Shown piece after piece: positions 1 to 50,568 of a DNA stretch of 64,000 nt; position 1 is the stretch's first letter, and each line of letters begins with the position of its first letter. The position numbers were made by a program, and so were the translations under genes. The DNA comes from a virus. The stretch lies in UHGV virus genome UHGV-0198106; one strand, 5' to 3'. The notes under the pieces are model-generated. The model did not search any database. It had not been told where the DNA came from and was given only the letters and a program-made list of their open reading frames with translations.

Positions 1-534
1 ATGGCGATGCCAGATTTCAGAGGAGCTTTTACATACGATCCAAATACTGGGCACCTTTTCTGGTCAATGAGTAATATCTACAATAAACAGAAAGGACAAC
101 GTGCTGGGTGTGTTAATAGCAGGGGGTATCGTATACTGACCTTCAAGAAGAAATCATATCTAGAGCATAGAGTCATAGCTGAAATGTTTATACCTAGAAT
201 AGAAGGTAAAGATCAGATTAACCACAAGAATGGGGTTAAAGATGACAACAGACTTGAGAATCTTGAATGGTGCACAGGTAGTGAAAATTGCCAGCATTCT
301 GTAGATACAGGTCTTATGAAAGTTAAAAGTCTTGAAGAAAATCCAAATTCAAAACTTACTAAAGAGCAAGTCCTCTTCTGTATAGAGAACTATAAACCGA
401 GAGATAGTGAATTCGGCGCTAGAGCCTTATCTAGGAAATTTGGTGTTAACAAAAGCACAATATCTCTCATCATTAATGGTACAAACTGGAAAGGAGTTAA
501 ATATGAGCATGCCAGAAGTACAAAACCCGATTAA
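1..534 (+). CDS. HNH homing endonuclease (HNH_3-type)
   Basis: Track ORF; motif INHKNGVKDDNRLENLEW typical of phage HNH endonucleases; ATG sits at window position 1, so the true 5' end may lie upstream. Confidence 0.7.
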   Translation: MAMPDFRGAFTYDPNTGHLFWSMSNIYNKQKGQRAGCVNSRGYRILTFKKKSYLEHRVIAEMFIPRIEGKDQINHKNGVKDDNRLENLEWCTGSENCQHSVDTGLMKVKSLEENPNSKLTKEQVLFCIENYKPRDSEFGARALSRKFGVNKSTISLIINGTNWKGVKYEHARSTKPD

Positions 535-1255
535 CACGTATGGCTGGCTTAAGAAAGCTGTTGCCTTGTGGGCCGATCGAGATGATGACGAATTTGTTAA
601 TCAAATTCCAAACTTTATTAACTTTGCAGAGAAAGAGATTTATCGTAACTTACGTATTCCTCCTCTGGAAAAAGAAGTCTATTTAGATATCAAAGATGGA
701 GTGGCTTATATTCCTCCTGATTACTTAGAAGCTCAATGGATGATGAGAGCCAAAGATGGTACAATCTTCCAAGTAACATCTCCTGAGGAGATTAGCTATC
801 GTAGGCAGCATGGAACAATTAACCCATCTCACTGGAATAACCAACCTGTTAATTTTGCTCGTTTCGGGAGTCGTTTCATTTTCTACCCTAGCATTGAAGC
901 AGATACTCCATACTACCCTGATGATGGAAGCCCTTTGATTCCAGCAGAAAACTCAGTAATTCTTAGTTACTATGCAGACCCACCGGAATTCCATGAAGAC
1001 GCAGACACTAGTGCTATCCTTACTATCGCACCAGAACTTCTTCTGTACTTCACCCTACGTCATGCTTGTCTGTTTGTTCAAGATGATAACGGTGTTCAGA
1101 AATGGTCAGCATTAGGAAAAGCTATCCTTGATGAAATGGTAGAGCAGAATAAGAAACAGGAGTATTCAGGTTCACCTATCGCAATTCCGAACAACATGAC
1201 TCGACTTCAGAGCAGCCTGCCTGACATTTATGGCATTCGTACATCTCGTCCATAA
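503..1255 (+). CDS. hypothetical virion-module protein
   Basis: Track ORF 407..1255 trimmed to first in-frame ATG (503), preceded by AAGGAG at 491-496; overlaps 3' end of the HNH gene; no recognisable motif. Confidence 0.5.
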   Translation: MSMPEVQNPINTYGWLKKAVALWADRDDDEFVNQIPNFINFAEKEIYRNLRIPPLEKEVYLDIKDGVAYIPPDYLEAQWMMRAKDGTIFQVTSPEEISYRRQHGTINPSHWNNQPVNFARFGSRFIFYPSIEADTPYYPDDGSPLIPAENSVILSYYADPPEFHEDADTSAILTIAPELLLYFTLRHACLFVQDDNGVQKWSALGKAILDEMVEQNKKQEYSGSPIAIPNNMTRLQSSLPDIYGIRTSRP

Positions 1256-1264
1256 GGAGAAACC

Positions 1265-3808
1265 ATGATCAGTTATAATAATTCAGCACCCGATGCAATC
1301 AATAACGTAGGCCAATTTGGTGCTACTGAAGGTTCTATCGGAGCCTATAAACAAGCAGCAGAATATGCAGCTGATGCTAAATATTGGGCACTCTTGTCTC
1401 AAACTAAATACAACTCTGTGGAAGACATTCTCTCGGAAGTAGAGCGGCTCTATGCCCAAGGCCGTCTGCTTGAAGAAGATATTAAGCAACTTAAGGCAGA
1501 TTTTGAAGATCAGAATCAAGTCTTATTAGGACTTATTCAGTCTACAGGACAAGCTATTGACAACACAAATGCAGCTACAGAGCTTTCAAAAGAAGCAACA
1601 CAGAAAGTGCTGGATCAGCTTGATATCATATCTAACATGACTGTTCAGGTATCTCTGCTCCCTCCGGGCAGTTTAGCAACCGGTAGTTATGATAATGAGA
1701 CAGGTCAATTCTCTTTTGGTATTCCAGAAGGGACTCCCGGGCGAGACGGCACAGACGGAACTATTTCTGATATAGGATCTGTTGCTATAGGGGTTCCTGA
1801 TTCGGAAGATTATGGGTTCTATGTTGACTCAACAGATGGGGGTTTATACCGCACTTCAATGGATAACATTGCGAATCTTGTACCCTCTATTAGATCTGTT
1901 TCTATCAATGGAGGTCCAGAACAAACAGGAGATATTTCTTTTAATTCAGTATCCAGCTTCAAGAGCCGTACAGGTGATGTTATTCCACAAGCAGGTGATT
2001 ACTCTGTGGACCAGATTACCGGGGCAGCAAAAAGTGGAGCTAACTCTGATATTACCTCTTTGTCTGGGTTGACTTCTGCAATATTGGTTAGTCAGGGTGG
2101 TACGGGGGCAACTACTCCAGAATCGGCTCGTACTAATCTAGGATTAGGTTTAGTTGCTACTGAATCTATTGTACCTATCACGAAAGGTGGTACAGGAGCA
2201 AATACTGTCACGGAAGCAAGGTCTAATCTAGGATTAGGTTTAGTTGCTACTGAATCTATTGTACCTATCACGAAAGGTGGTACAGGTTCCACTAGTGCTG
2301 AGAATGCTCGATTAGCACTTGTAGCAGCAAAAAGTGGAGATAACTCTGATATTACCTCTTTTACTAACAAAGTGAGTTTTACACAACCAGTTAGCATCCC
2401 TGATGCGACAGTTAGTACAGAAGCTGCTTCCTATGGTCAAGTATTCCCAGCTCTAGAAATGTCAAGCAAGGTATCCTCTTACGATGGGTTTAATTCCATA
2501 GGCCGAGTCTTAAACCTCTCCGCACTTCAAACAGTAAACCCTCCTTCCGCTGGGATTACTATCAGAGTTGCATCTGCTTTTGCATCATCAGAAGCTCAGG
2601 CGATGCGAGGCGGTGGGTTGTTCCAAAGCATCCCTAGAGAGGGTCAGGTGAATGACTATGGTATAGTCGTTTTCCCTGTTGAAGAAGGTTTATATTGTTG
2701 GAAACGTTTGAACGTTACTACATATGAAGCAGAATTTTGGGGAGTTGTTCCTGACGGATCTACTGATAACGCTGTTGCTATCCAGAGAGCTATGGATTAT
2801 GCTAAACGAAATAAAGTGATTATTGATTTCCCAGCTGGGAACATCCACACTTCTGTAGCCGTTCCTATTTATGACAATTGTGGAATAAGGGGAAAAGGTA
2901 GGGCTGAGTCTACAGTGTTTTATAAAACATCAAACTCTTACACCCAAGTAGGTCCTAGTTATTCAGTGGATGCTCTCTGTGTGTTTATACCTTCTGTCTG
3001 GGATTTATCAGACCATGAGATGAAATCCTATTGTTCTCATGCCCATGTTAGTAAGTGTATGTTTAGACGTCTTGGCATGTCTGCATCAACAGCGGAGTCT
3101 ATTGCACCACAATATGGTCTCTTCTTAGGGAAGGCAGCTTCTCCTGTAGTAGAGGATTGTATCTTTGAAGGGGGTAAGACCGGGCTTAAGGCATATAATG
3201 CTTTTTCTGGAGGAATCATCCGAACCTCTTTTGTTCAGTTTAACAGGGTTGGTATTACGGGGTTTGACATTTCTTACTATAACTCTGAGACTGGAGTTTT
3301 ATATCAATCTGGCACCAGCATGGATATTAGAAACGTCGGAATCAGAGGGTACCAGACTGGTTTTTCTTTAGGTAGACTTCAGCATAGCACCATGACTGAT
3401 TGCTCTGTTGAAGAGGTATTTCCTCGACCTGAAGGTGGGGAGGCTTGGGCTTTCGAATTCATTGATCCTTATATGATTTCTATGAATGGGTGTGCTACTG
3501 AGTTCATATCAGGAGGTCAGATTAAGGTAAGAGGCTTTACTAATCCGAGCTTTAGTGCTGCCTTAAATGTCACTGGATATGTAGCAATAGACCAACAAAA
3601 CCCTTCTATAAGCACCCCATATTACAACATTGATGGTGGTGGTAATGTACTAAACGTAGTTTTCCAGTCGTGTGAACTAGGTAAGGCATCACTAGCTAAT
3701 CTAACAAACCCGGTAGTAGGTAGTGCAAACACTAAGGTCATCTATATAGGGACTACAGGTGTCGATCCAACCGTATCAGGTGGTGGGTCCTTTGTTAAGC
3801 TGGCATAA
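1265..3808 (+). CDS. tail fibre / tailspike protein
   Basis: 847 aa; ATG preceded by AAGGAGAAACC; two pairs of near-identical internal peptide repeats (NLGLGLVATESIVPITKGGTG x2, AAKSG-NSDITS x2); C-terminal half resembles beta-rich fibre/spike sequence. Confidence 0.6.
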   Translation: MISYNNSAPDAINNVGQFGATEGSIGAYKQAAEYAADAKYWALLSQTKYNSVEDILSEVERLYAQGRLLEEDIKQLKADFEDQNQVLLGLIQSTGQAIDNTNAATELSKEATQKVLDQLDIISNMTVQVSLLPPGSLATGSYDNETGQFSFGIPEGTPGRDGTDGTISDIGSVAIGVPDSEDYGFYVDSTDGGLYRTSMDNIANLVPSIRSVSINGGPEQTGDISFNSVSSFKSRTGDVIPQAGDYSVDQITGAAKSGANSDITSLSGLTSAILVSQGGTGATTPESARTNLGLGLVATESIVPITKGGTGANTVTEARSNLGLGLVATESIVPITKGGTGSTSAENARLALVAAKSGDNSDITSFTNKVSFTQPVSIPDATVSTEAASYGQVFPALEMSSKVSSYDGFNSIGRVLNLSALQTVNPPSAGITIRVASAFASSEAQAMRGGGLFQSIPREGQVNDYGIVVFPVEEGLYCWKRLNVTTYEAEFWGVVPDGSTDNAVAIQRAMDYAKRNKVIIDFPAGNIHTSVAVPIYDNCGIRGKGRAESTVFYKTSNSYTQVGPSYSVDALCVFIPSVWDLSDHEMKSYCSHAHVSKCMFRRLGMSASTAESIAPQYGLFLGKAASPVVEDCIFEGGKTGLKAYNAFSGGIIRTSFVQFNRVGITGFDISYYNSETGVLYQSGTSMDIRNVGIRGYQTGFSLGRLQHSTMTDCSVEEVFPRPEGGEAWAFEFIDPYMISMNGCATEFISGGQIKVRGFTNPSFSAALNVTGYVAIDQQNPSISTPYYNIDGGGNVLNVVFQSCELGKASLANLTNPVVGSANTKVIYIGTTGVDPTVSGGGSFVKLA
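2133..2286 (+). repeat. two identical 64-bp direct repeats (2133-2196 and 2223-2286) inside the tail fibre gene
   Basis: Read directly: ctaatctaggattaggtttagttgctactgaatctattgtacctatcacgaaaggtggtacagg occurs twice with a 90-bp period. Confidence 0.85.
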
Positions 3809-3816
3809 TCTATAGT

Positions 3817-3835
3817 CCCTCCCGTAATGGGAGGG
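3817..3835 (+). terminator. hairpin after tail fibre gene (weak terminator candidate)
   Basis: CCCTCCC-gtaat-GGGAGGG inverted repeat 9 nt after the stop codon; no clear U-tract. Confidence 0.3.
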
Positions 3836-3910
3836 GTTAGTAGCGAGTGTCAATAAGTGGTAATGAAATCATTATACTAATAAGAGGTTAATATATAGGA
3901 GACATTAAAA

Positions 3911-4129
3911 ATGAAAATGATGAAACAAGCTGTATACGGTTTAGTGTGTCTAAGTGCAGGTGTTGTGGTATCTACCGCAGTTCCTGTAGGCGCAGTTCAC
4001 CCATTAGTAACTGTCCCTGCTCAGGTAGAGAAGCTTAGTTCTCAGTGCAAGCAGAGGACAATTCAGAATAATTTAGTCGTTATTTGTCCTGATGCTGAAT
4101 CTAACGCTCTGAGAAAGATACTACCTTAA
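3911..4129 (+). CDS. small secreted/membrane protein (possible lysis accessory)
   Basis: 72 aa with hydrophobic N-terminus (VYGLVCLSAGVVVSTAV); immediately upstream of the lysozyme gene. Confidence 0.4.
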   Translation: MKMMKQAVYGLVCLSAGVVVSTAVPVGAVHPLVTVPAQVEKLSSQCKQRTIQNNLVVICPDAESNALRKILP

Positions 4130-4159
4130 TTTAAAGGGATTACAAAAAGGAGGTTAGAA

Positions 4160-4651
4160 ATGGACAACGCCGCATTGCCACCTGTACAGCTAAACTTAAG
4201 CCCAGCTGGAATGGAATTCATCATGAAGCATGAGGGTATGAGAACCAAAGCTTATAAAGATTCCGCAGGTATCTGGACGATATGTGTAGGGGCTACGCGC
4301 GACATGAATGGGTATCCGGTTAGACAAGGATTAACGTATTCTATAGAGGATTGTCTAGCTCTGCTAGATAGAGACACGCAAGACTCTGTTCGTGCTACTC
4401 AGAAGAACATAAAGGTTCCTTTGTTAGTTCATGAGTTTGATGCGCTCACTTCTTTCAACTTCAATGTTGGTAGTGGGGCTTTGAGCACATCTAAGCTAAG
4501 AAAGGTTATCAATGGAGAAGTGAAAGGTGATGTTTATTCCGAATTTCTTCGTTGGGATAAGATAACGGTCAAGGGAGAGAAGCAGAGAAGTCAGGGTCTT
4601 CATAACAGAAGGGTTGCAGAAGCTGATCTTTATACCGAAGGTAAATATTAA
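4160..4651 (+). CDS. lysozyme, glycoside hydrolase family 24 (phage lysozyme)
   Basis: AAAGGAGG then ATG; sequence FIMKHEGMRTKAYKDSAGIWTICVGATRDMNG... matches the lambda R / P22 gp19 lysozyme family pattern. Confidence 0.85.
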   Translation: MDNAALPPVQLNLSPAGMEFIMKHEGMRTKAYKDSAGIWTICVGATRDMNGYPVRQGLTYSIEDCLALLDRDTQDSVRATQKNIKVPLLVHEFDALTSFNFNVGSGALSTSKLRKVINGEVKGDVYSEFLRWDKITVKGEKQRSQGLHNRRVAEADLYTEGKY

Positions 4652-4663
4652 TGGAGGTGCCTC

Positions 4664-5467
4664 TTGGCTATTGAAACTAATGCGGTAGTAGTTACCGACT
4701 TAAACCCTCTCTATCCTCGTGATAGAGATTATATTTATGAAGGTGCAGCCCAGCTGCGCCTAGTTAAACAAGTATTACAGAACACATTCCCTAATTTAAC
4801 AGAACCTATGACTGTAGATTCTGATACACTAGCCGCTATCTCTGACAAAATTTCTTTTGCTGGGGATTATATGGATGTTGGCGGCCTGATGATTAAAAAT
4901 GGTACAGCAGGCACTGGTAATAATGATTTTACCACTAAAGCTCAAATGGAAGCTTTTATGCTTAACTGGATGCAAAACAAGATTTATAGGGTTGGGTCCT
5001 ACTACATCACTGAGGAGGATATCAATCCGGGGGATTCTACATCTTTAGGGTTTGGTATCTGGACAGCTGTTACTGGTGTTATTATGGGTGCCGGAGTTGT
5101 GAACCCTGACGGAACAGTCCCTAATGCTCAGCGTGTGGAGTTTACTGCTGGTGCTACTGGTGGTCGTGTTTACAACACGATTAAGACAGAGAATCTACCA
5201 TTAACCACAATCTCTGGTTCTAGTTTTTCTCTTTCTAACTATACACACACCCATACAACAACGTTTGGGCGAGGAGATGCTAGTGGTCATAACAGTTCAC
5301 CTAACTGGTACAACCCCGGTAGTGGATATTCTGCTGTAACAAGCTCTGATACCCACACCCACTCTATCACGGGTGATGCAACATTTGGCTATGATGACGT
5401 ATCTCGTCAACCTATAAATACGTTACCACCTTTCCGTGCAGCATATATCTGGAGACGTATTAGCTAA
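4664..5467 (+). CDS. tail fibre-like protein with HxH motifs
   Basis: TTG start 4 nt after GGAGGTG; C-terminal NYTHTHTTTF and SDTHTHSITG HxH motifs, as in phage fibre tip domains. Confidence 0.5.
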   Translation: MAIETNAVVVTDLNPLYPRDRDYIYEGAAQLRLVKQVLQNTFPNLTEPMTVDSDTLAAISDKISFAGDYMDVGGLMIKNGTAGTGNNDFTTKAQMEAFMLNWMQNKIYRVGSYYITEEDINPGDSTSLGFGIWTAVTGVIMGAGVVNPDGTVPNAQRVEFTAGATGGRVYNTIKTENLPLTTISGSSFSLSNYTHTHTTTFGRGDASGHNSSPNWYNPGSGYSAVTSSDTHTHSITGDATFGYDDVSRQPINTLPPFRAAYIWRRIS

Positions 5468-5476
5468 GGAGGAAGT

Positions 5477-8434
5477 ATGGCTCTCTACCCAATAAAATCT
5501 TTGGGTGCGGTTGGTGTTATTGCCGACCAATCTCCTACAGATCTGGCTCCTAATGCATTCACCAATGCAATCAATGCTCGGTTTGTAGAACAACGCGTCT
5601 TTAAAACGGGGGGCTCTGCCCCTCTTTCTTACGTCGAGAGTGATAAAGAAATAAAACCATTATCATTCACTTCAATGCCTTTTGACTACTTCAGTGCTAA
5701 CAAAAGTTTCTTACTAGTAGGTACAGATAAGAGTATTTTTAGGTTAAATAATGAATCTATGGTTGATGTTAGTCGAAGAGTGGCTACAGTTACCAAAAAA
5801 GCTGTGTCTTATATTAAAATCAATCCTGTATTAACAGAGATCATCCCTAAAGAAACATCTGTCATTATGAATTTTAATGAAAGCAAGATTCTCGAGGTAT
5901 CTCTTCTTCCAGAGGGTGTTACTTCTCCATCCCTCGTGTGGGAGGTTAGTAACCCTTCTTATGGCTCAATACTAGTTGACCCTGTCGATAGTAAGAAAGC
6001 TACATTAAGCGTCTTGTCTAATGAGGGAAGCTTCACTGTCACGATCTCTAATGAAGATGAATCTGTGACTACCAGCATTTCCGTAAGGGTTGTCGATTCG
6101 GATTCTGGTATTTTTCTTAACCGAGATTCTGTGCAACTACGAAAAGGTGGAACAACCACTCTTACAGCAACAACAAGTAAGACTCCACTAACATGGACTT
6201 CTTCTAACCCAGCCATTATCTCTGTAGCACCTAACGGTGACACTACTACAGCAGTGTTAACCGCTCAAGGGGTAGGTAATGCGCTGATAACTGTAAGCAA
6301 CGGGTCTAAGACCTCAGAATGCTCTGTTAGTGTTATTAATCAGATTGACAGTATATCTTTAAGTCAAACAGATTTACAGATTAACCGTGGGACGTCTTAT
6401 GTTCTGTATGCTAGCCTAATCCCATCAAATGCTGCAAATCAGAAAATAACTTGGACTTCCTCTAACCCAAACATTGCTACTGTTTCGGGAACAGGTCTTC
6501 AAGGCACTGTCTCTGGACTCACAGCTGGATTTACAGTTATAACAGCAACCACGGAAGAAGGGGGGAGAGCAGCCACTTGTAATGTTAGGGTTGAGTTATC
6601 AAGCAGAACTCTTTTTGCTGCTGCATCAGCTCCTTCTGAAGAATCCAGTTCTATGGATTCAGGTATCGACACCTCATCAATGTCAGAGGGAAACCCTTTT
6701 TATGATTACTCTATGGTTGATGGCGTTGAAGCTTATTCGATAAATGAAGCTATGTCTAGGTCAACTCAGCTTGAATCCTTAACTCTTGACATTGTGGATA
6801 CCGAAATTGATGTTGGGGATGAATTAGTAATAACTGCAACGGCATTCCCTGAAGGGGAGTATCTTTATAATTGGGTGGTAGACCAGCCGGGGTATCTATC
6901 CTCTACCTCCACTACCGACCCTTCTTTTACCTTAACTGCTATTAAGACTGGCAAAGTGAAGATAACCTGCACTGCTAGTCAAGTAGCTCGTAGAGATTAT
7001 GAAGCATTTGAGGAGTATCCCTGGTATAATACGATCATCTCTAACTGCGCAGTATTCACTACTCACTACGAAACCCCTCAAGTAAAAGAGTTTGCCTCTG
7101 AGTATTTCACAGATCTTCCGGGGTGGGGTGAGCAAACAATAGTTGATGCTAACGGAAATCCATCTGTTGTGAAATATAACTGGAAGTGCGAGAGGATTCG
7201 TGCATTTAATAATCGCCTATTTGCTCTTAATATGCGAGAGTCTAATGCATCAGGGGTTACTACTCATTACCCTCTTCGCCTTCGCTGGTCTAACTATGCT
7301 AATGAGAATAAGGCACCTACTCTATGGGATGATTTTGCTTATGATAGATATGTGACTTCAGACTTAGCAGCAAATGTTGTAGGACAGACTGAGGCTCTGG
7401 AAAATGGGTATGCCGGGTATATAGATCTAGCTGACTCAAATGGTAGTTTAGTTGAGATTCTTCCTCTTAAAGATTACCTGTTTATCTATACAGAGTTTGA
7501 GACTTACATTGGATCTCCAACTAACAACACATATCAGCCACTGATGTTCAAGAAACTATTCAATGATTCTGGAATCTTAGCACCTGAGTGTGTAGTTGAA
7601 GTTGAAAGTGGTCACTTTGTTGTTACTCAGAATGATGTTATTCTACACAATGGTGCAACCAAGAAGTCTATTGCATCCAACAGGGTCAAGAATATGCTTA
7701 TCAATGAGGTGTGTTTAGTAAACCCTTTAGCCACTAAGGTTCATCTGCATCAGGATAAGAAGGAAGTGTGGATCCTCTATGTTGGTCCCGGAGAACCTGC
7801 TGGGAGTTTTGCTTGTACAAAAGCTGCTGTATGGAATTATGAGTTTGATACATGGTCTTTTCGTACAATTCCATTCTCTCATTGTATTGGTTTAGTGGAT
7901 CCTCCGACTTTAGAGAAAGGTCCTACTTGGGTTGATTTCCAAGAGTATACTTGGGATGATCCATCAATTAGTGAGCTTGTGTGGAGAAAGGATTCTACTA
8001 ACTTCCGTCAGAGAGTAACTGTAGTAGGTTCTTGGATGAAAGGTTTTTACCAAGTAGACATAGGCCCTTATGACTATTCTTATGATAGGCTGAATGACAT
8101 TGTTGTCAAAAAGCCTTTAGAGATGAGACTGGAAAGAACTGGTATTGATTTTGACAATGTAACTAATGAATGGAATCAGAAGCACATAAATCGATTCCGT
8201 CCACAAGTAACAGGGTCGGGTACCTACATATTCCAAGCTGGCGGTAGTCAGTATTCGGACCAGGAGGATAGGCATATCCACAGTGAAAAGCCTTATATAA
8301 TTGGTGTGGACAGGCATGTAAGCGTCCGACTGAACCATCCGTATCTATTCTATAATGTTATAGATAATGATGTTAACAGTAATGCAGCTATCAATGGGTT
8401 AACTATTGAGTTTGCTGTTGGCGGGCGAAGATAA
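5477..8434 (+). CDS. large virion protein with Ig-like (Big_2-type) repeats
   Basis: 985 aa; AAGGAGG then ATG; repeated ~80-aa segments of the type VTAQGVGNALITVSNGSKTSECSVSV in residues ~200-380. Confidence 0.5.
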   Translation: MALYPIKSLGAVGVIADQSPTDLAPNAFTNAINARFVEQRVFKTGGSAPLSYVESDKEIKPLSFTSMPFDYFSANKSFLLVGTDKSIFRLNNESMVDVSRRVATVTKKAVSYIKINPVLTEIIPKETSVIMNFNESKILEVSLLPEGVTSPSLVWEVSNPSYGSILVDPVDSKKATLSVLSNEGSFTVTISNEDESVTTSISVRVVDSDSGIFLNRDSVQLRKGGTTTLTATTSKTPLTWTSSNPAIISVAPNGDTTTAVLTAQGVGNALITVSNGSKTSECSVSVINQIDSISLSQTDLQINRGTSYVLYASLIPSNAANQKITWTSSNPNIATVSGTGLQGTVSGLTAGFTVITATTEEGGRAATCNVRVELSSRTLFAAASAPSEESSSMDSGIDTSSMSEGNPFYDYSMVDGVEAYSINEAMSRSTQLESLTLDIVDTEIDVGDELVITATAFPEGEYLYNWVVDQPGYLSSTSTTDPSFTLTAIKTGKVKITCTASQVARRDYEAFEEYPWYNTIISNCAVFTTHYETPQVKEFASEYFTDLPGWGEQTIVDANGNPSVVKYNWKCERIRAFNNRLFALNMRESNASGVTTHYPLRLRWSNYANENKAPTLWDDFAYDRYVTSDLAANVVGQTEALENGYAGYIDLADSNGSLVEILPLKDYLFIYTEFETYIGSPTNNTYQPLMFKKLFNDSGILAPECVVEVESGHFVVTQNDVILHNGATKKSIASNRVKNMLINEVCLVNPLATKVHLHQDKKEVWILYVGPGEPAGSFACTKAAVWNYEFDTWSFRTIPFSHCIGLVDPPTLEKGPTWVDFQEYTWDDPSISELVWRKDSTNFRQRVTVVGSWMKGFYQVDIGPYDYSYDRLNDIVVKKPLEMRLERTGIDFDNVTNEWNQKHINRFRPQVTGSGTYIFQAGGSQYSDQEDRHIHSEKPYIIGVDRHVSVRLNHPYLFYNVIDNDVNSNAAINGLTIEFAVGGRR

Positions 8435-50464: not shown

Positions 50465-50568
50465 AAGAGCTCTTAGCGAGGGTGACAGGACTCGAACCTG
50501 CATACTCCATTTACTTCTTTAACGACCGCTTAGAAGGCGGGGAAGATACACCCTCACTAAGAGCTCTC
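50465..50568 (-). other. structured element: 20-bp inverted repeat enclosing tRNA-like T-arm and anticodon-like hairpin
   Basis: Arms aagagctcttagcgagggtg / caccctcactaagagctctc; on the minus strand GCAGGTTCGAGTCCTGT (T-arm-like) and CCGC-CTTCTAA-GCGG (UCU anticodon-like loop); no canonical D-arm, so not called as tRNA. Confidence 0.3.

What the first reader, a model, noticed from the sequence alone, without database searches (positions are those of the whole stretch)
2024..2361. Exact DNA repeats inside the tail fibre gene
Seen in sequence: a 64-bp segment is duplicated exactly (2133-2196 and 2223-2286), and a 38-bp segment recurs with one mismatch (2024-2061 and 2324-2361). Exact identity at DNA level suggests recent duplication or ongoing recombination. 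Inference: a variable repeat-number region that may modulate fibre length or host range.
Basis: seen in the sequence. Interest (0 to 1): 0.4.

Follow-up and report, generated by a model that had tools for sequence, protein, structure and literature searches.

The report
Recombining shaft repeats in tail fibre
Two in-frame 30-amino-acid shaft modules in the tail-fibre/tailspike gene of an E. coli podophage share a 64-bp stretch that recent recombination made identical; this is a real but ordinary example of how phage fibres homogenise, gain and lose repeat units.

Summary
There is a 64-bp exact repeat (2133-2196 and 2223-2286, 90 bp apart, in frame) and a 38-bp repeat with one mismatch (2024-2061 and 2324-2361). 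Neither occurs in shuffled sequence.

The gene (1265-3808) is the long tail fibre of a Kuravirus (phiEco32/SU10-like coliphage). It has three parts:
- an SU10 gp12-like anchor (aa 1-239);
- a shaft module of 30-aa "GGTG…ARxNLGLG…VPIxK" units, bracketed by two AAKSGxNSDITS motifs (the 38-bp repeat);
- a beta-helix depolymerase (aa ~393-847).

This is not a fresh 90-bp duplication. Thirteen relatives have the same two-unit layout, but with diverged units (28-32 of 53 nt identical). Orthologous units coding almost the same peptide differ at 7-13 synonymous codons. In the window, a unit-2-type sequence has overwritten unit 1, which points to recent gene conversion.

Such identical tracts are substrates for unequal crossover. 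Unit number ranges from 1 to 4 GGTG among 120 database relatives. It reaches 5 and 7 in the isolates XT73 and XT32, which are at least 99.7% identical in the flanks, although the XT counts may be affected by assembly.

An effect on fibre length is plausible (about 4 nm per unit, by analogy with the R2 pyocin shaft). An effect on host range is untested. The phenomenon is of a known kind and of modest interest.

The parts
503..1255 (+). Tail adaptor gene (context): the fibre docks on this protein
   Evidence: Pfam PF24175 SU10_adaptor, E 4.6e-29. SU10 structure paper PMC9509320.
1265..3808 (+). Long tail fibre / tailspike gene, 847 aa (identical to DAE36441.1, 'MAG TPA: tail protein')
   Evidence: ORF list. 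PDB 7z47_D, SU10 'putative tail fiber', E 8e-97. PHROG tail fibre families. Exact look-up.
1265..1981 (+). N-terminal anchor and coiled-coil domain (aa 1-239), homologous to SU10 gp12
   Evidence: Query aa 1-239 aligns with 7z47_D residues 1-235, i-Evalue 2.3e-76. AF2 predicts a long helix at aa 52-119.
2024..2061 (+). 38-bp repeat, copy 1: encodes AAKSGANSDITSL, the motif that opens the shaft module
   Evidence: The motif is conserved in SU10 gp12 (aa 464-480) and PhiM1 gp47.
2096..2185 (+). 30-aa shaft unit 1 (GGTGATTPESARTNLGLGLVATESIVPITK): a unit-1-type variable half followed by a unit-2-type constant half
2133..2196 (+). 64-bp exact tract, copy 1 (constant half of unit 1 plus the first 11 nt of the next GGTG)
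2186..2275 (+). 30-aa shaft unit 2 (GGTGANTVTEARSNLGLGLVATESIVPITK)
2223..2286 (+). 64-bp exact tract, copy 2
   Evidence: An independent scaffold breaks at 2277|2278.
2276..2365 (+). Terminal unit (GGTGSTSAENARLALVAAKSGDNSDITSFT), which closes the module
   Evidence: It is conserved in ES17, the XT phages and P0032-P0051.
2324..2361 (+). 38-bp repeat, copy 2: encodes AAKSGDNSDITSF, next to a junction where relatives switch to unrelated C-terminal domains
   Evidence: Breakpoints of similarity cluster at aa ~368 and ~393.
2441..3805 (+). C-terminal right-handed beta-helix depolymerase (tailspike) domain, aa ~393-847
   Evidence: Pfam PF12708, 41.3 bits against a cut-off of 27. PDB 24qi_A tailspike depolymerase, E 1.7e-10. 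Foldseek top hits are all phage tailspikes. 50% identity to the PAS7 tailspike.

Best explanation
The repeats are the DNA footprint of a modular, recombination-prone shaft segment in the long tail fibre of a Kuravirus.

Architecture. The protein has three parts: an SU10 gp12-like virion anchor, a shaft made of 30-residue units (GGTG, a variable 8-9 residues, ARxNLGLG, then xVxxExxVPIxK), and an exchangeable beta-helix depolymerase. A conserved AAKSGxNSDITS motif brackets the shaft on each side.

Shown. The two-unit layout is ancestral in this clade, and normally the two units are diverged. In the window, the constant half of unit 1 has been replaced by an exact copy of the constant half of unit 2. 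This gives a 64-bp tract with no differences at all, synonymous ones included.

Inferred. The replacement arose by intragenic gene conversion, or an equivalent unequal exchange, during phage replication and recombination. Once two 64-bp identical tracts sit 90 bp apart, misaligned homologous recombination or replication slippage can delete the intervening unit or add further [variable + constant] units in 30-aa steps, always in frame. The neighbouring XT lineage shows exactly this series: [V1C][term], [V1C][V2C]x3[term] and [V1C][V2C]x5[term].

Inferred by analogy. Each unit probably adds about 4 nm of trimeric 'helix-plus-turn' shaft, judging from the R2 pyocin Shaft domain. If so, unit number sets how far the depolymerase is held from the tail. 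The conserved bracketing motif probably also serves as a homology patch for swapping C-terminal receptor-binding domains between phages.
For: Identity of the phage and gene:
- The window backbone is about 91-92% identical at nucleotide level to Kuravirus XT32, XT18, XT73 and ES17.
- The fibre N-terminus matches SU10 gp12. The adaptor gene lies immediately upstream.

Unit structure and frame.

The layout is ancestral:
- P0032-P0044 (13 clusters, 76-80% identical over aa 1-393) all have GGTG at residues 278, 308 and 338, and the motif at 256 and 356.
- Their unit-1 and unit-2 constant halves are only 28-32 of 53 nt identical (42 of 53 in P0044), against 53 of 53 in the window.
- The window's unit-1 slot holds the unit-2-type peptide LVATESIVPITK instead of SVSVENVVPLTK.

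Identity is not due to protein constraint:
- Window unit 2 against orthologous units differs synonymously at 7-13 of 22 codons. The paralogous pair in the window has 20 of 22 identical codons, and both differences lie at the tract edges.

Patchy homogenisation elsewhere:
- P0038 has 36 nt exact between unit 1 and the terminal unit. P0036 has 33 of 37 nt identical in the variable halves. P0044 has exact patches of 23-26 nt.
- TH34 has two fully identical 90-bp units, and TH42 has a 53-nt exact patch.

Copy-number variation:
- Runs of 1, 2, 3 and 4 GGTG occur in 31, 37, 46 and 3 of the 120 relatives respectively.
- L012 has 1; ES17 and MAUZ01 have 2; XT73 has 5 and XT32 has 7, with exact 90-bp units.
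- XT32, XT73 and XT18 are at least 99.7% identical in the flanking ~7 kb.

Structural analogy:
- One unit aligns with the R2 pyocin fibre at 6cl6 residues 233-284 (E 1e-4). The paper describes this Shaft domain as 70 residues and about 93 Å of intertwined helix-plus-turn repeats (PMC6116203).
- AF2 places one short helix on each xxARxNL segment, at low confidence.

Junction role:
- Similarity of relatives to the window ends in clusters at aa ~227, ~293, ~368 and ~393.
- The C-terminal domain recurs in unrelated phages (PAS7, TL-2011b, Aeromonas phages).
Against: - No second genome with this exact allele and a different unit number was found. Instability of this particular array is therefore inferred from relatives.
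- Most close relatives share the same count (3 GGTG), so the number is fairly stable where the units are diverged.
- The XT counts come from arrays of 270-450 bp of perfect repeats. Short-read assembly could miscount these. XT18 has an aberrant 121-nt unit with a frameshift that looks like a misassembly.
- The shaft region of SU10 gp12 is unresolved in cryo-EM (only residues 1-90 were built).
- The AF2 monomer model has pLDDT below 50 across most of aa 206-414. The match to the pyocin Shaft is weak (E about 1e-4) and lacks its HxH iron site. The figure of about 4 nm per unit is therefore an extrapolation.
- Nothing here links unit number to any phenotype.
Confidence: 0.75

Rival explanations
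1. Simple recent tandem duplication of one 90-bp unit: a one-unit ancestor like ES17 or P0051 duplicated its unit, and the copies have not yet diverged.
For: One-unit alleles exist: ES17, P0051, P0058 and P0059. The single unit of P0051 has exactly the window's unit-1 peptide start, GGTGATTPESARTN, joined to a unit-2-type constant half.
Against: A fresh duplication would give 90 of 90 nt identical. Here the first 37 nt of the two units are only 21 of 37 identical, with 4 non-synonymous and 4 synonymous codon differences out of 12, next to 64 nt with no differences. Thirteen relatives already have two units at the same residues.
Confidence: 0.1
2. Inter-phage (not intragenic) recombination: a misaligned crossover between two co-infecting Kuraviruses, one with one unit and one with two, joined [V1 C2] to [V2 C2].
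For: Fibre genes in this group are strongly mosaic, with clustered breakpoints. Every unit boundary carries the conserved AAAGGTGGTAC sequence, which could act as a crossover point.
Against: The two C2 tracts would then come from different parents. Orthologous C2 tracts of different phages differ at 9-18 of 53 nt, so exact identity would need near-identical parents.
Confidence: 0.08
3. Assembly artefact: the window is a metagenome-assembled contig, and the repeat structure or copy number was created or collapsed by the assembler.
For: The source is a MEGAHIT-style contig, k119_19566. An independent scaffold of the same phage has a 100-N gap exactly at 2277|2278, inside the second tract.
Against: Both assemblies contain both tracts with identical sequence on each side of the gap. 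The reading frame is intact, and the positions of GGTG and of the motif match 13 relatives residue for residue. A k-mer of 119 exceeds the 64-bp repeat, so the path through it is read-supported (inference). The existence of the repeat is therefore safe. What remains possible is that the true array is longer or heterogeneous.
Confidence: 0.05
4. Identity is maintained by selection on an embedded DNA or RNA element (promoter, terminator, structured RNA or recombination site) rather than by recent recombination.
For: None found.
Against: Orthologous tracts vary freely at synonymous sites. There are no promoter- or terminator-like sites in 2000-2400. There is no Rfam hit there.
Confidence: 0.02

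Closest known systems
SU10 gp12, long tail fibre proximal protein (PDB 7Z47 chain D; Siborova et al. 2022, PMC9509320)
   Same: The N-terminal 239 aa are homologous (E 2e-76). The gene sits in the same position after the adaptor gene. The same AASSGANSDITSLSGLT…QGGTG motif and two 30-aa GGTG units occur at SU10 residues 464-544.
   Different: In SU10 the units sit about 210 residues further along. SU10's C-terminus joins a separate distal fibre protein, gp13. The window has no gp13 homologue and instead fuses a depolymerase beta-helix. SU10's two units are diverged at DNA level. The repeat region of gp12 was not resolved structurally.
Escherichia phages vB-EcoP-XT73, XT32 and XT18 and the metagenomic contig MAUZ01000001 (same fibre architecture)
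   Same: They share the anchor, the bracketing motif, the first/internal/terminal unit logic, and exact identity of the constant halves.
   Different: The unit sequence differs (DVSVENIVPISK). The whole 90-bp internal unit is repeated exactly 3 or 5 times, whereas the window has a single internal unit. The C-terminal domain differs beyond aa ~560.
T4 gp37 small-domain duplications flanked by conserved motifs (Tetart et al. 1996, J Mol Biol 258:726; reference listed in PMC3157838; content from my own knowledge)
   Same: These are in-frame duplications of a short fibre segment, generated by recombination between short conserved repeated motifs inside a fibre gene.
   Different: The sequence is unrelated and lies in the distal adhesin tip. 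Those duplications were shown experimentally to expand host range. Here the segment is in the shaft and no phenotype is known.
R1/R2 pyocin fibre Shaft domain (PDB 6CL6/6CL5/6CT8; Buth et al. 2018, PMC6116203)
   Same: One window unit plus its neighbour aligns with '…ILPLARGGVGSNTAAGARSTIGAGVPATASL' (E 5e-5 to 3e-4). That domain is a trimeric, intertwined, repeat-built 'helix-plus-turn' rod.
   Different: The similarity is weak. The pyocin Shaft has an HxH iron site that is absent from the window module. It has no tandem 30-aa periodicity and no reported copy-number variation.
Conserved-motif-mediated module swapping in T-even fibre and adhesin genes (gp38 glycine-rich motifs; Trojet et al. 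2011, PMC3157838)
   Same: Short conserved motifs separate variable segments and coincide with recombination junctions.
   Different: The protein, the fold and the motif are all different.

Membership tests
Kuravirus / SU10 gp12-like long tail fibre (proximal) protein | N-terminal adaptor-binding and coiled-coil domain homologous to SU10 gp12 | tested here: met
   aa 1-239 aligns with 7z47_D residues 1-235, i-Evalue 2.3e-76. phrog_10305 tail fibre, E 1e-82.
Kuravirus / SU10 gp12-like long tail fibre (proximal) protein | Encoded immediately downstream of the SU10-type adaptor gene in a Kuravirus structural module | tested here: met
   PF24175 adaptor at 503-1252. The same gene order occurs in XT, ES17, SU10 and others. 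The backbone is about 91% identical at nucleotide level to Kuraviruses.
Kuravirus / SU10 gp12-like long tail fibre (proximal) protein | Partnered with a separate distal fibre protein (gp13) to form a two-segment fibre | tested here: not met
   The next ORFs are a 72-aa holin-like protein, a lysozyme, a Gp10_C short fibre and a Big_2 nozzle protein. As in ES17 and the XT phages, the fibre instead carries its own depolymerase domain.
Phage tailspike depolymerase (right-handed parallel beta-helix, Pfam PF12708/PF13229) | Pectate-lyase-like beta-helix domain above Pfam's curated threshold | tested here: met
   PF12708 scores 41.3 bits against a cut-off of 27. PF13229 scores 21.7 against 25.9, which is below threshold.
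Phage tailspike depolymerase (right-handed parallel beta-helix, Pfam PF12708/PF13229) | Fold similarity to solved tailspikes | tested here: met
   The top Foldseek hit is 24qi, the Belisarius tailspike (E 1.4e-13). It is followed by AS12 gp42, Depo32 and CBA120 TSP2. The C-terminal domain has pLDDT 70-89.
Phage tailspike depolymerase (right-handed parallel beta-helix, Pfam PF12708/PF13229) | Glycan-cleaving activity and catalytic residues | not testable with these tools
   There is no close characterised homologue with mapped catalytic residues. This needs biochemistry.
Pfam 'Phage tail fibre repeat' (PF03406, recalled from memory as the classical lambda Stf / P2 H repeat) | Match of the repeat units to the Pfam repeat model | tested here: not met
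   An hmmscan of the 149-aa module at E up to 10 returned only ALK_LTK_GRD (E 0.073) and CAF17_C (E 5.7). No tail-fibre repeat family appeared, nor did one appear for the whole protein.
R-type pyocin / P2-type fibre Shaft (helix-plus-turn) domain | Sequence similarity to the Shaft segment | tested here: inconclusive
   E 4.9e-5 to 3.3e-4 over about 52 residues. This is significant but short.
R-type pyocin / P2-type fibre Shaft (helix-plus-turn) domain | Buried HxH iron-binding site | tested here: not met
   There is no histidine anywhere in window aa 245-393 (sequence). The pyocin HNH lies in the part of the alignment opposite 'SARTN'.
Variable-number tandem repeat (in-frame VNTR) in a structural gene | Head-to-tail units of near-identical DNA, with unit length a multiple of 3 | tested here: met
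   The period is 90 nt. In the window, 64 of the 90 nt are exact, although TRF calls no array. In XT73, XT32 and TH34 the full 90 nt are exact.
Variable-number tandem repeat (in-frame VNTR) in a structural gene | Copy-number polymorphism among otherwise near-identical genomes | tested here: inconclusive
   This is met for XT73 against XT32 (5 against 7 GGTG, flanks at least 99.7% identical), but assembly error cannot be excluded. For the window's own allele, only one other assembly exists, and it has a gap at the repeat.

The most novel reading that the evidence does not exclude
The GGTG array could be a contingency-like 'length ruler'. Within a single Kuravirus population, unequal recombination at the homogenised 64-90-bp tracts would continuously produce fibres of different length. 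That standing variation would then be selected according to the thickness of the host's O-antigen or capsule layer, tuning how far the depolymerase is held from the nozzle. The scaffold break at the repeat and the 5-versus-7-unit difference between near-clonal XT isolates would be its first traces.
Probability: 0.15. Interest if true: 0.5.

Novelty: new member of a known kind. Interest (0 to 1): 0.25.

Why it matters
Fibre and tailspike modularity governs phage host range and is exploited in phage engineering. This locus gives a clean, datable example of intragenic gene conversion creating the substrate for in-frame expansion of a fibre shaft. It also marks natural junctions, the AAKSGxNSDITS motif and the GGTG unit boundaries. 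At these junctions Kuravirus fibres tolerate insertion, deletion and domain exchange, which is useful for designing chimeric receptor-binding proteins. Practically, it flags a region where short-read assemblies of these phages break or miscount (XT18, scaffold L024). It does not reveal a new mechanism.

Tried and rejected
- Tandem Repeats Finder found no array. There are only two units, and they are partly diverged.
- Pfam has no family for the repeat module, even at E up to 10.
- A protein-database search with the 186-aa module alone returned only short fragments (326 aa or less) and was uninformative about copy number. The full-length query worked.
- A scan of IMG/VR for the unit-boundary DNA pattern gave 0 hits. 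The metagenome scan gave one contig. The search for related loci on IMG/VR gave only 3 loci.
- A third protein search, with the XT32 fibre, found no further XT-type alleles beyond MAUZ01 and XT18. The XT copy-number series therefore could not be extended.
- A literature search for the XT phages found nothing relevant. A search for 'tail fiber, tandem repeats, number of repeats' found nothing useful.
- The AF2 monomer model is unreliable across the repeat region (pLDDT below 50), so no geometry was derived from it.
- A regulatory DNA or RNA element was considered. There are no promoter or terminator sites in 2000-2400 and no Rfam hit, so this was rejected.
- The antisense ORF 2092-2397 (101 aa) is treated as a by-product of the repeat.
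- A diversity-generating retroelement was considered and set aside. The copies are exact and lie in tandem in frame, rather than forming a template/variable pair that differs at adenines. I did not scan the window for a reverse transcriptase.
- A Chi-like recombination hotspot at the unit boundary was considered: GCTGGTGG is absent from the units (sequence).
Full report
**1. Observation**

The repeat finder reports a direct repeat at 2133-2207 and 2223-2297. Its first 64 nt are identical, and the start-to-start spacing is 90 nt. It also reports a 38-nt pair at 2024-2061 and 2324-2361 with one mismatch and spacing of 300 nt.

Searching the whole 64-kb window on both strands with up to 3 mismatches finds only these copies. 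None of 100 dinucleotide-preserving shuffles gives a single match. Both spacings are multiples of three, and all copies lie in frame in ORF 1265-3808 (847 aa). Tandem Repeats Finder calls no array, because there are only two units and 26 nt of each are diverged.

**2. The gene and the phage**

The first 25 kb of the window are 88-92% identical at nucleotide level to E. coli podophages of the genus Kuravirus (XT32, XT18, XT73, ES17, SU10, phiEco32).

The ORF lies directly after the SU10-type adaptor gene (PF24175). Its first 239 residues align with SU10 gp12, the long tail fibre proximal protein (7z47_D, i-Evalue 2e-76). According to the SU10 structure paper, gp12 docks as a trimer on the adaptor (PMC9509320).

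Residues ~393-847 form a pectate-lyase-like beta-helix. The evidence is as follows:
- PF12708 scores above its threshold.
- PDB 24qi, a tailspike depolymerase, matches at E 1.7e-10.
- The AF2 C-terminal domain has pLDDT 70-89, and its top Foldseek hits are all phage tailspikes.

There is no gp13-like distal fibre gene. The next ORFs are a holin-like protein, a lysozyme, the short fibre and the nozzle protein. The protein is therefore a fibre anchor fused to a tailspike, as in ES17 and the XT phages.

The exact protein is already public as DAE36441.1, 'MAG TPA: tail protein', on a 69,090-nt metagenome contig.

**3. Anatomy of the repeat region**

Translated, the region reads:

…QITG-AAKSGANSDITSL-SGLTSAILVSQ / GGTGATTPESARTNLGLGLVATESIVPITK / GGTGANTVTEARSNLGLGLVATESIVPITK / GGTGSTSAENARLALV-AAKSGDNSDITSF-TNKVSFTQP…

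It therefore consists of 30-residue units. Each starts with GGTG, continues with a variable stretch (V) and ends with a constant half (C).
- The 64-bp repeat is C plus the first 11 nt of the next GGTG.
- The 38-bp repeat encodes the AAKSGxNSDITS motif that brackets the module.

The same motif and units occur in SU10 gp12 (residues 464-544), in Pectobacterium phage PhiM1 gp47 (8vbx) and, more weakly, in the R2 pyocin fibre. Many PHROG tail-fibre families match the module. No Pfam family matches it, even at E up to 10.

**4. Comparison with relatives: a conversion, not a fresh duplication**

A search of the large protein collection returned 217 relatives, of which 120 were listed.

Thirteen clusters (P0032-P0044) are 76-80% identical to the window over aa 1-393 and carry unrelated C-terminal domains. 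All have GGTG at residues 278, 308 and 338, and the motif at 256 and 356. The two-unit-plus-terminal layout is therefore ancestral.

In those relatives the two units are different:
- Unit 1 ends …LGLGSVSVENVVPLTK and unit 2 ends …LGLGLVSTESIVPITK.
- At DNA level their C halves are only 28-32 of 53 nt identical, or 42 of 53 in P0044 (using loci).

In the window both slots carry the unit-2-type sequence and are 53 of 53 identical. The V halves remain 21 of 37 identical.

Protein constraint cannot explain the identity. Window unit 2 differs from orthologous units coding almost the same peptide by 7-13 synonymous codon changes out of 22. The two paralogous tracts in the window share 20 of 22 codons, and both differences are at the tract edges. 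At the 57-83% per-site identity seen in such comparisons, a run of 64 matches has probability between 2e-16 and 7e-6.

The most economical reading is a recent gene conversion of C1 by C2.

Other genomes show other exact patches:
- P0038 has 36 nt shared between unit 1 and the terminal unit.
- P0036 has 33 of 37 nt identical in the V halves.
- P0044 has exact patches of 23-26 nt.
- TH34 has two completely identical 90-bp units, and TH42 has a 53-nt patch.

Patchy homogenisation among these units is therefore recurrent in the genus.

**5. Copy number**

| Source | GGTG in the longest 30-aa-spaced run |
|---|---|
| 31 of the 120 listed relatives | 1 |
| 37 of the 120 | 2 |
| 46 of the 120 | 3 |
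| 3 of the 120 | 4 |
| 3 of the 120 | none |
| IMG/VR locus L012 | 1 |
| ES17, metagenomic contig MAUZ01000001 | 2 |
| Window | 3 |
| XT73 | 5 |
| XT32 | 7 |

The XT arrays follow the logic expected from unequal crossover between identical C tracts. MAUZ01 is [V1 C][term]. XT73 is [V1 C][V2 C]x3[term]. XT32 is [V1 C][V2 C]x5[term]. All internal units are 90 of 90 identical.

XT18, XT32 and XT73 come from the same sewage source and host. They are at least 99.7% identical over the ~7 kb compared, apart from the array and an HNH gene.

The window, [V1 C][V2 C][term], is the minimal state that carries the substrate: two 64-bp identical tracts 90 bp apart.

Caveats:
- Arrays of 270-450 bp of perfect repeats are hard to assemble from short reads.
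- XT18 has an aberrant 121-nt spacing that frameshifts the gene into two annotated CDS. This is probably a misassembly.
- A second, independent scaffold of the window phage is 100% identical on both sides but has a 100-N gap exactly at 2277|2278, inside the second tract.
- No variant of the window's own allele with another unit number was found.

**6. The 38-bp pair**

The motif pair is present in every relative examined. Within-genome nucleotide identity ranges from 26 of 39 to 37 of 39. The window is highest, with all 11 same-amino-acid codons identical, but P0044 and P0033 come close at 10 of 12. This is a conserved peptide motif with some homogenisation, not a duplication.

The points where relatives stop resembling the window cluster at aa ~227 (52 proteins), ~293 (11), ~368 (8, just after the second motif) and ~393 (21).

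The C-terminal domain recurs at 38-63% identity behind quite different N-termini: the PAS7 tailspike, prophage TL-2011b, Aeromonas phages, and P0045, P0055 and P0063.

The module boundaries, including the second motif, thus coincide with recombination junctions for swapping the receptor-binding domain. That the motif acts as the homology patch is an inference.

**7. Likely function**

Shown: the units are in-frame parts of a fibre protein, lying between the anchor and the enzyme.

Inferred: they form the trimeric shaft.
- One unit aligns with the C-terminal half of the R2 pyocin 'Shaft' (E about 1e-4). That domain is a 70-residue, ~93 Å rod of three intertwined chains built from short helix-plus-turn repeats (PMC6116203).
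- Scaling by that figure gives about 4 nm per 30-aa unit.
- AF2 (monomer only) places one short helix on each xxARxNL segment, but pLDDT is below 50 there.
- The pyocin HxH iron site is absent from the window module (no histidine in aa 245-393).
- In SU10 this part of gp12 was not resolved.

A role of unit number in host range is untested. Kuravirus long fibres are thought to recognise O-antigen (BASEL preprint 10.1101/2024.09.12.612763). Specificity should therefore lie mainly in the depolymerase domain.

**8. Comparison with known systems, and novelty**

The behaviour matches well-known fibre-gene plasticity: in-frame duplication of small fibre segments through recombination between short conserved motifs. 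The T4 gp37 case (Tetart et al. 1996) is cited in PMC3157838, and its content is from my own knowledge. Conserved motifs as recombination linkers are described for the gp38 glycine-rich motifs (PMC3157838).

I found no paper describing this particular 30-aa GGTG unit or its copy-number series in Kuraviruses. The Kuravirus review notes only that the fibre genes are the most variable.

I therefore rate it a new member of a known kind. It is real, nicely documented and useful for engineering and for assembly quality control, but it is not surprising.

**9. Verdict**

| Question | Verdict |
|---|---|
| Observation | Confirmed |
| Recent recombination | Yes |
| Variable unit number in relatives | Yes |
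| Simple duplication | No |
| Effect on host range | Unknown |
| Interest | 0.25 |

Noticed in passing
window 1-534 (+), overlapping the adaptor gene start at 503: An HNH_3 homing-endonuclease ORF (PF13392) sits between the capsid-decoration region and the adaptor gene. It is present at the same site in XT18, XT32, 1-6af, 1-6bf and the P0044 contig. It is absent in ES17, SU10, XT73, the Ptacy phages and WFI101126. It is therefore a presence/absence polymorphism even between the XT isolates, which are at least 99.7% identical.
   Followed up: partly
L001 (OR757434.1, phage XT18) 3484-3742: The fibre gene is annotated as two CDS because one repeat unit has an aberrant 121-nt spacing: a chimeric junction, GGAGCC|TGTTCC, that shifts the frame. 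This is probably a short-read misassembly of the 90-bp array, or possibly an illegitimate recombination.
   Followed up: partly
L024 3576-3675 (ERZ28630220 scaffold_21), equivalent to window 2277|2278: An independent scaffold of the same phage is 100% identical on both sides but carries a 100-N gap exactly inside the second 64-bp tract. Gene callers therefore see only a 401-aa C-terminal fragment (P0153).
   Followed up: yes
MZ417522.1 'Mycolicibacterium phage J1' (24,953 nt), hits H37 and H96: A record labelled as a mycobacteriophage contains a Kuravirus fibre gene whose match statistics are identical to those of E. coli phage ES17. It is likely a contaminated or mislabelled record.
   Followed up: no
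window 3809-8434: There is no homologue of the SU10 distal long-fibre protein gp13. The fibre gene is followed by a 72-aa holin-like ORF (3911-4129), a lysozyme (4160-4651), a Gp10_C short fibre (4664-5467) and a 985-aa Big_2-containing nozzle protein (5477-8434).
   Followed up: partly
window 50477-50555 (-): An Rfam tRNA hit scores 30.2 bits, just above the gathering score of 29 (E 0.028). ARAGORN calls no tRNA in the window.
   Followed up: no
L025 (MT446407.1, TH34) and L026 (MT446413.1, TH42), SU10-type fibres, aa 492-640: TH34 has two fully identical 90-bp GGTG units plus 53 identical nt of a third. TH42 has a 53-nt exact patch between neighbouring units. SU10 and ECBP2 have only diverged units. 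The same homogenisation therefore occurs in the other fibre clade.
   Followed up: partly
window 2092-2397 (-): A 101-aa antisense ORF spans the repeat region and itself contains a repeated peptide. It has no support as a gene and is probably a by-product of the repeat.
   Followed up: no
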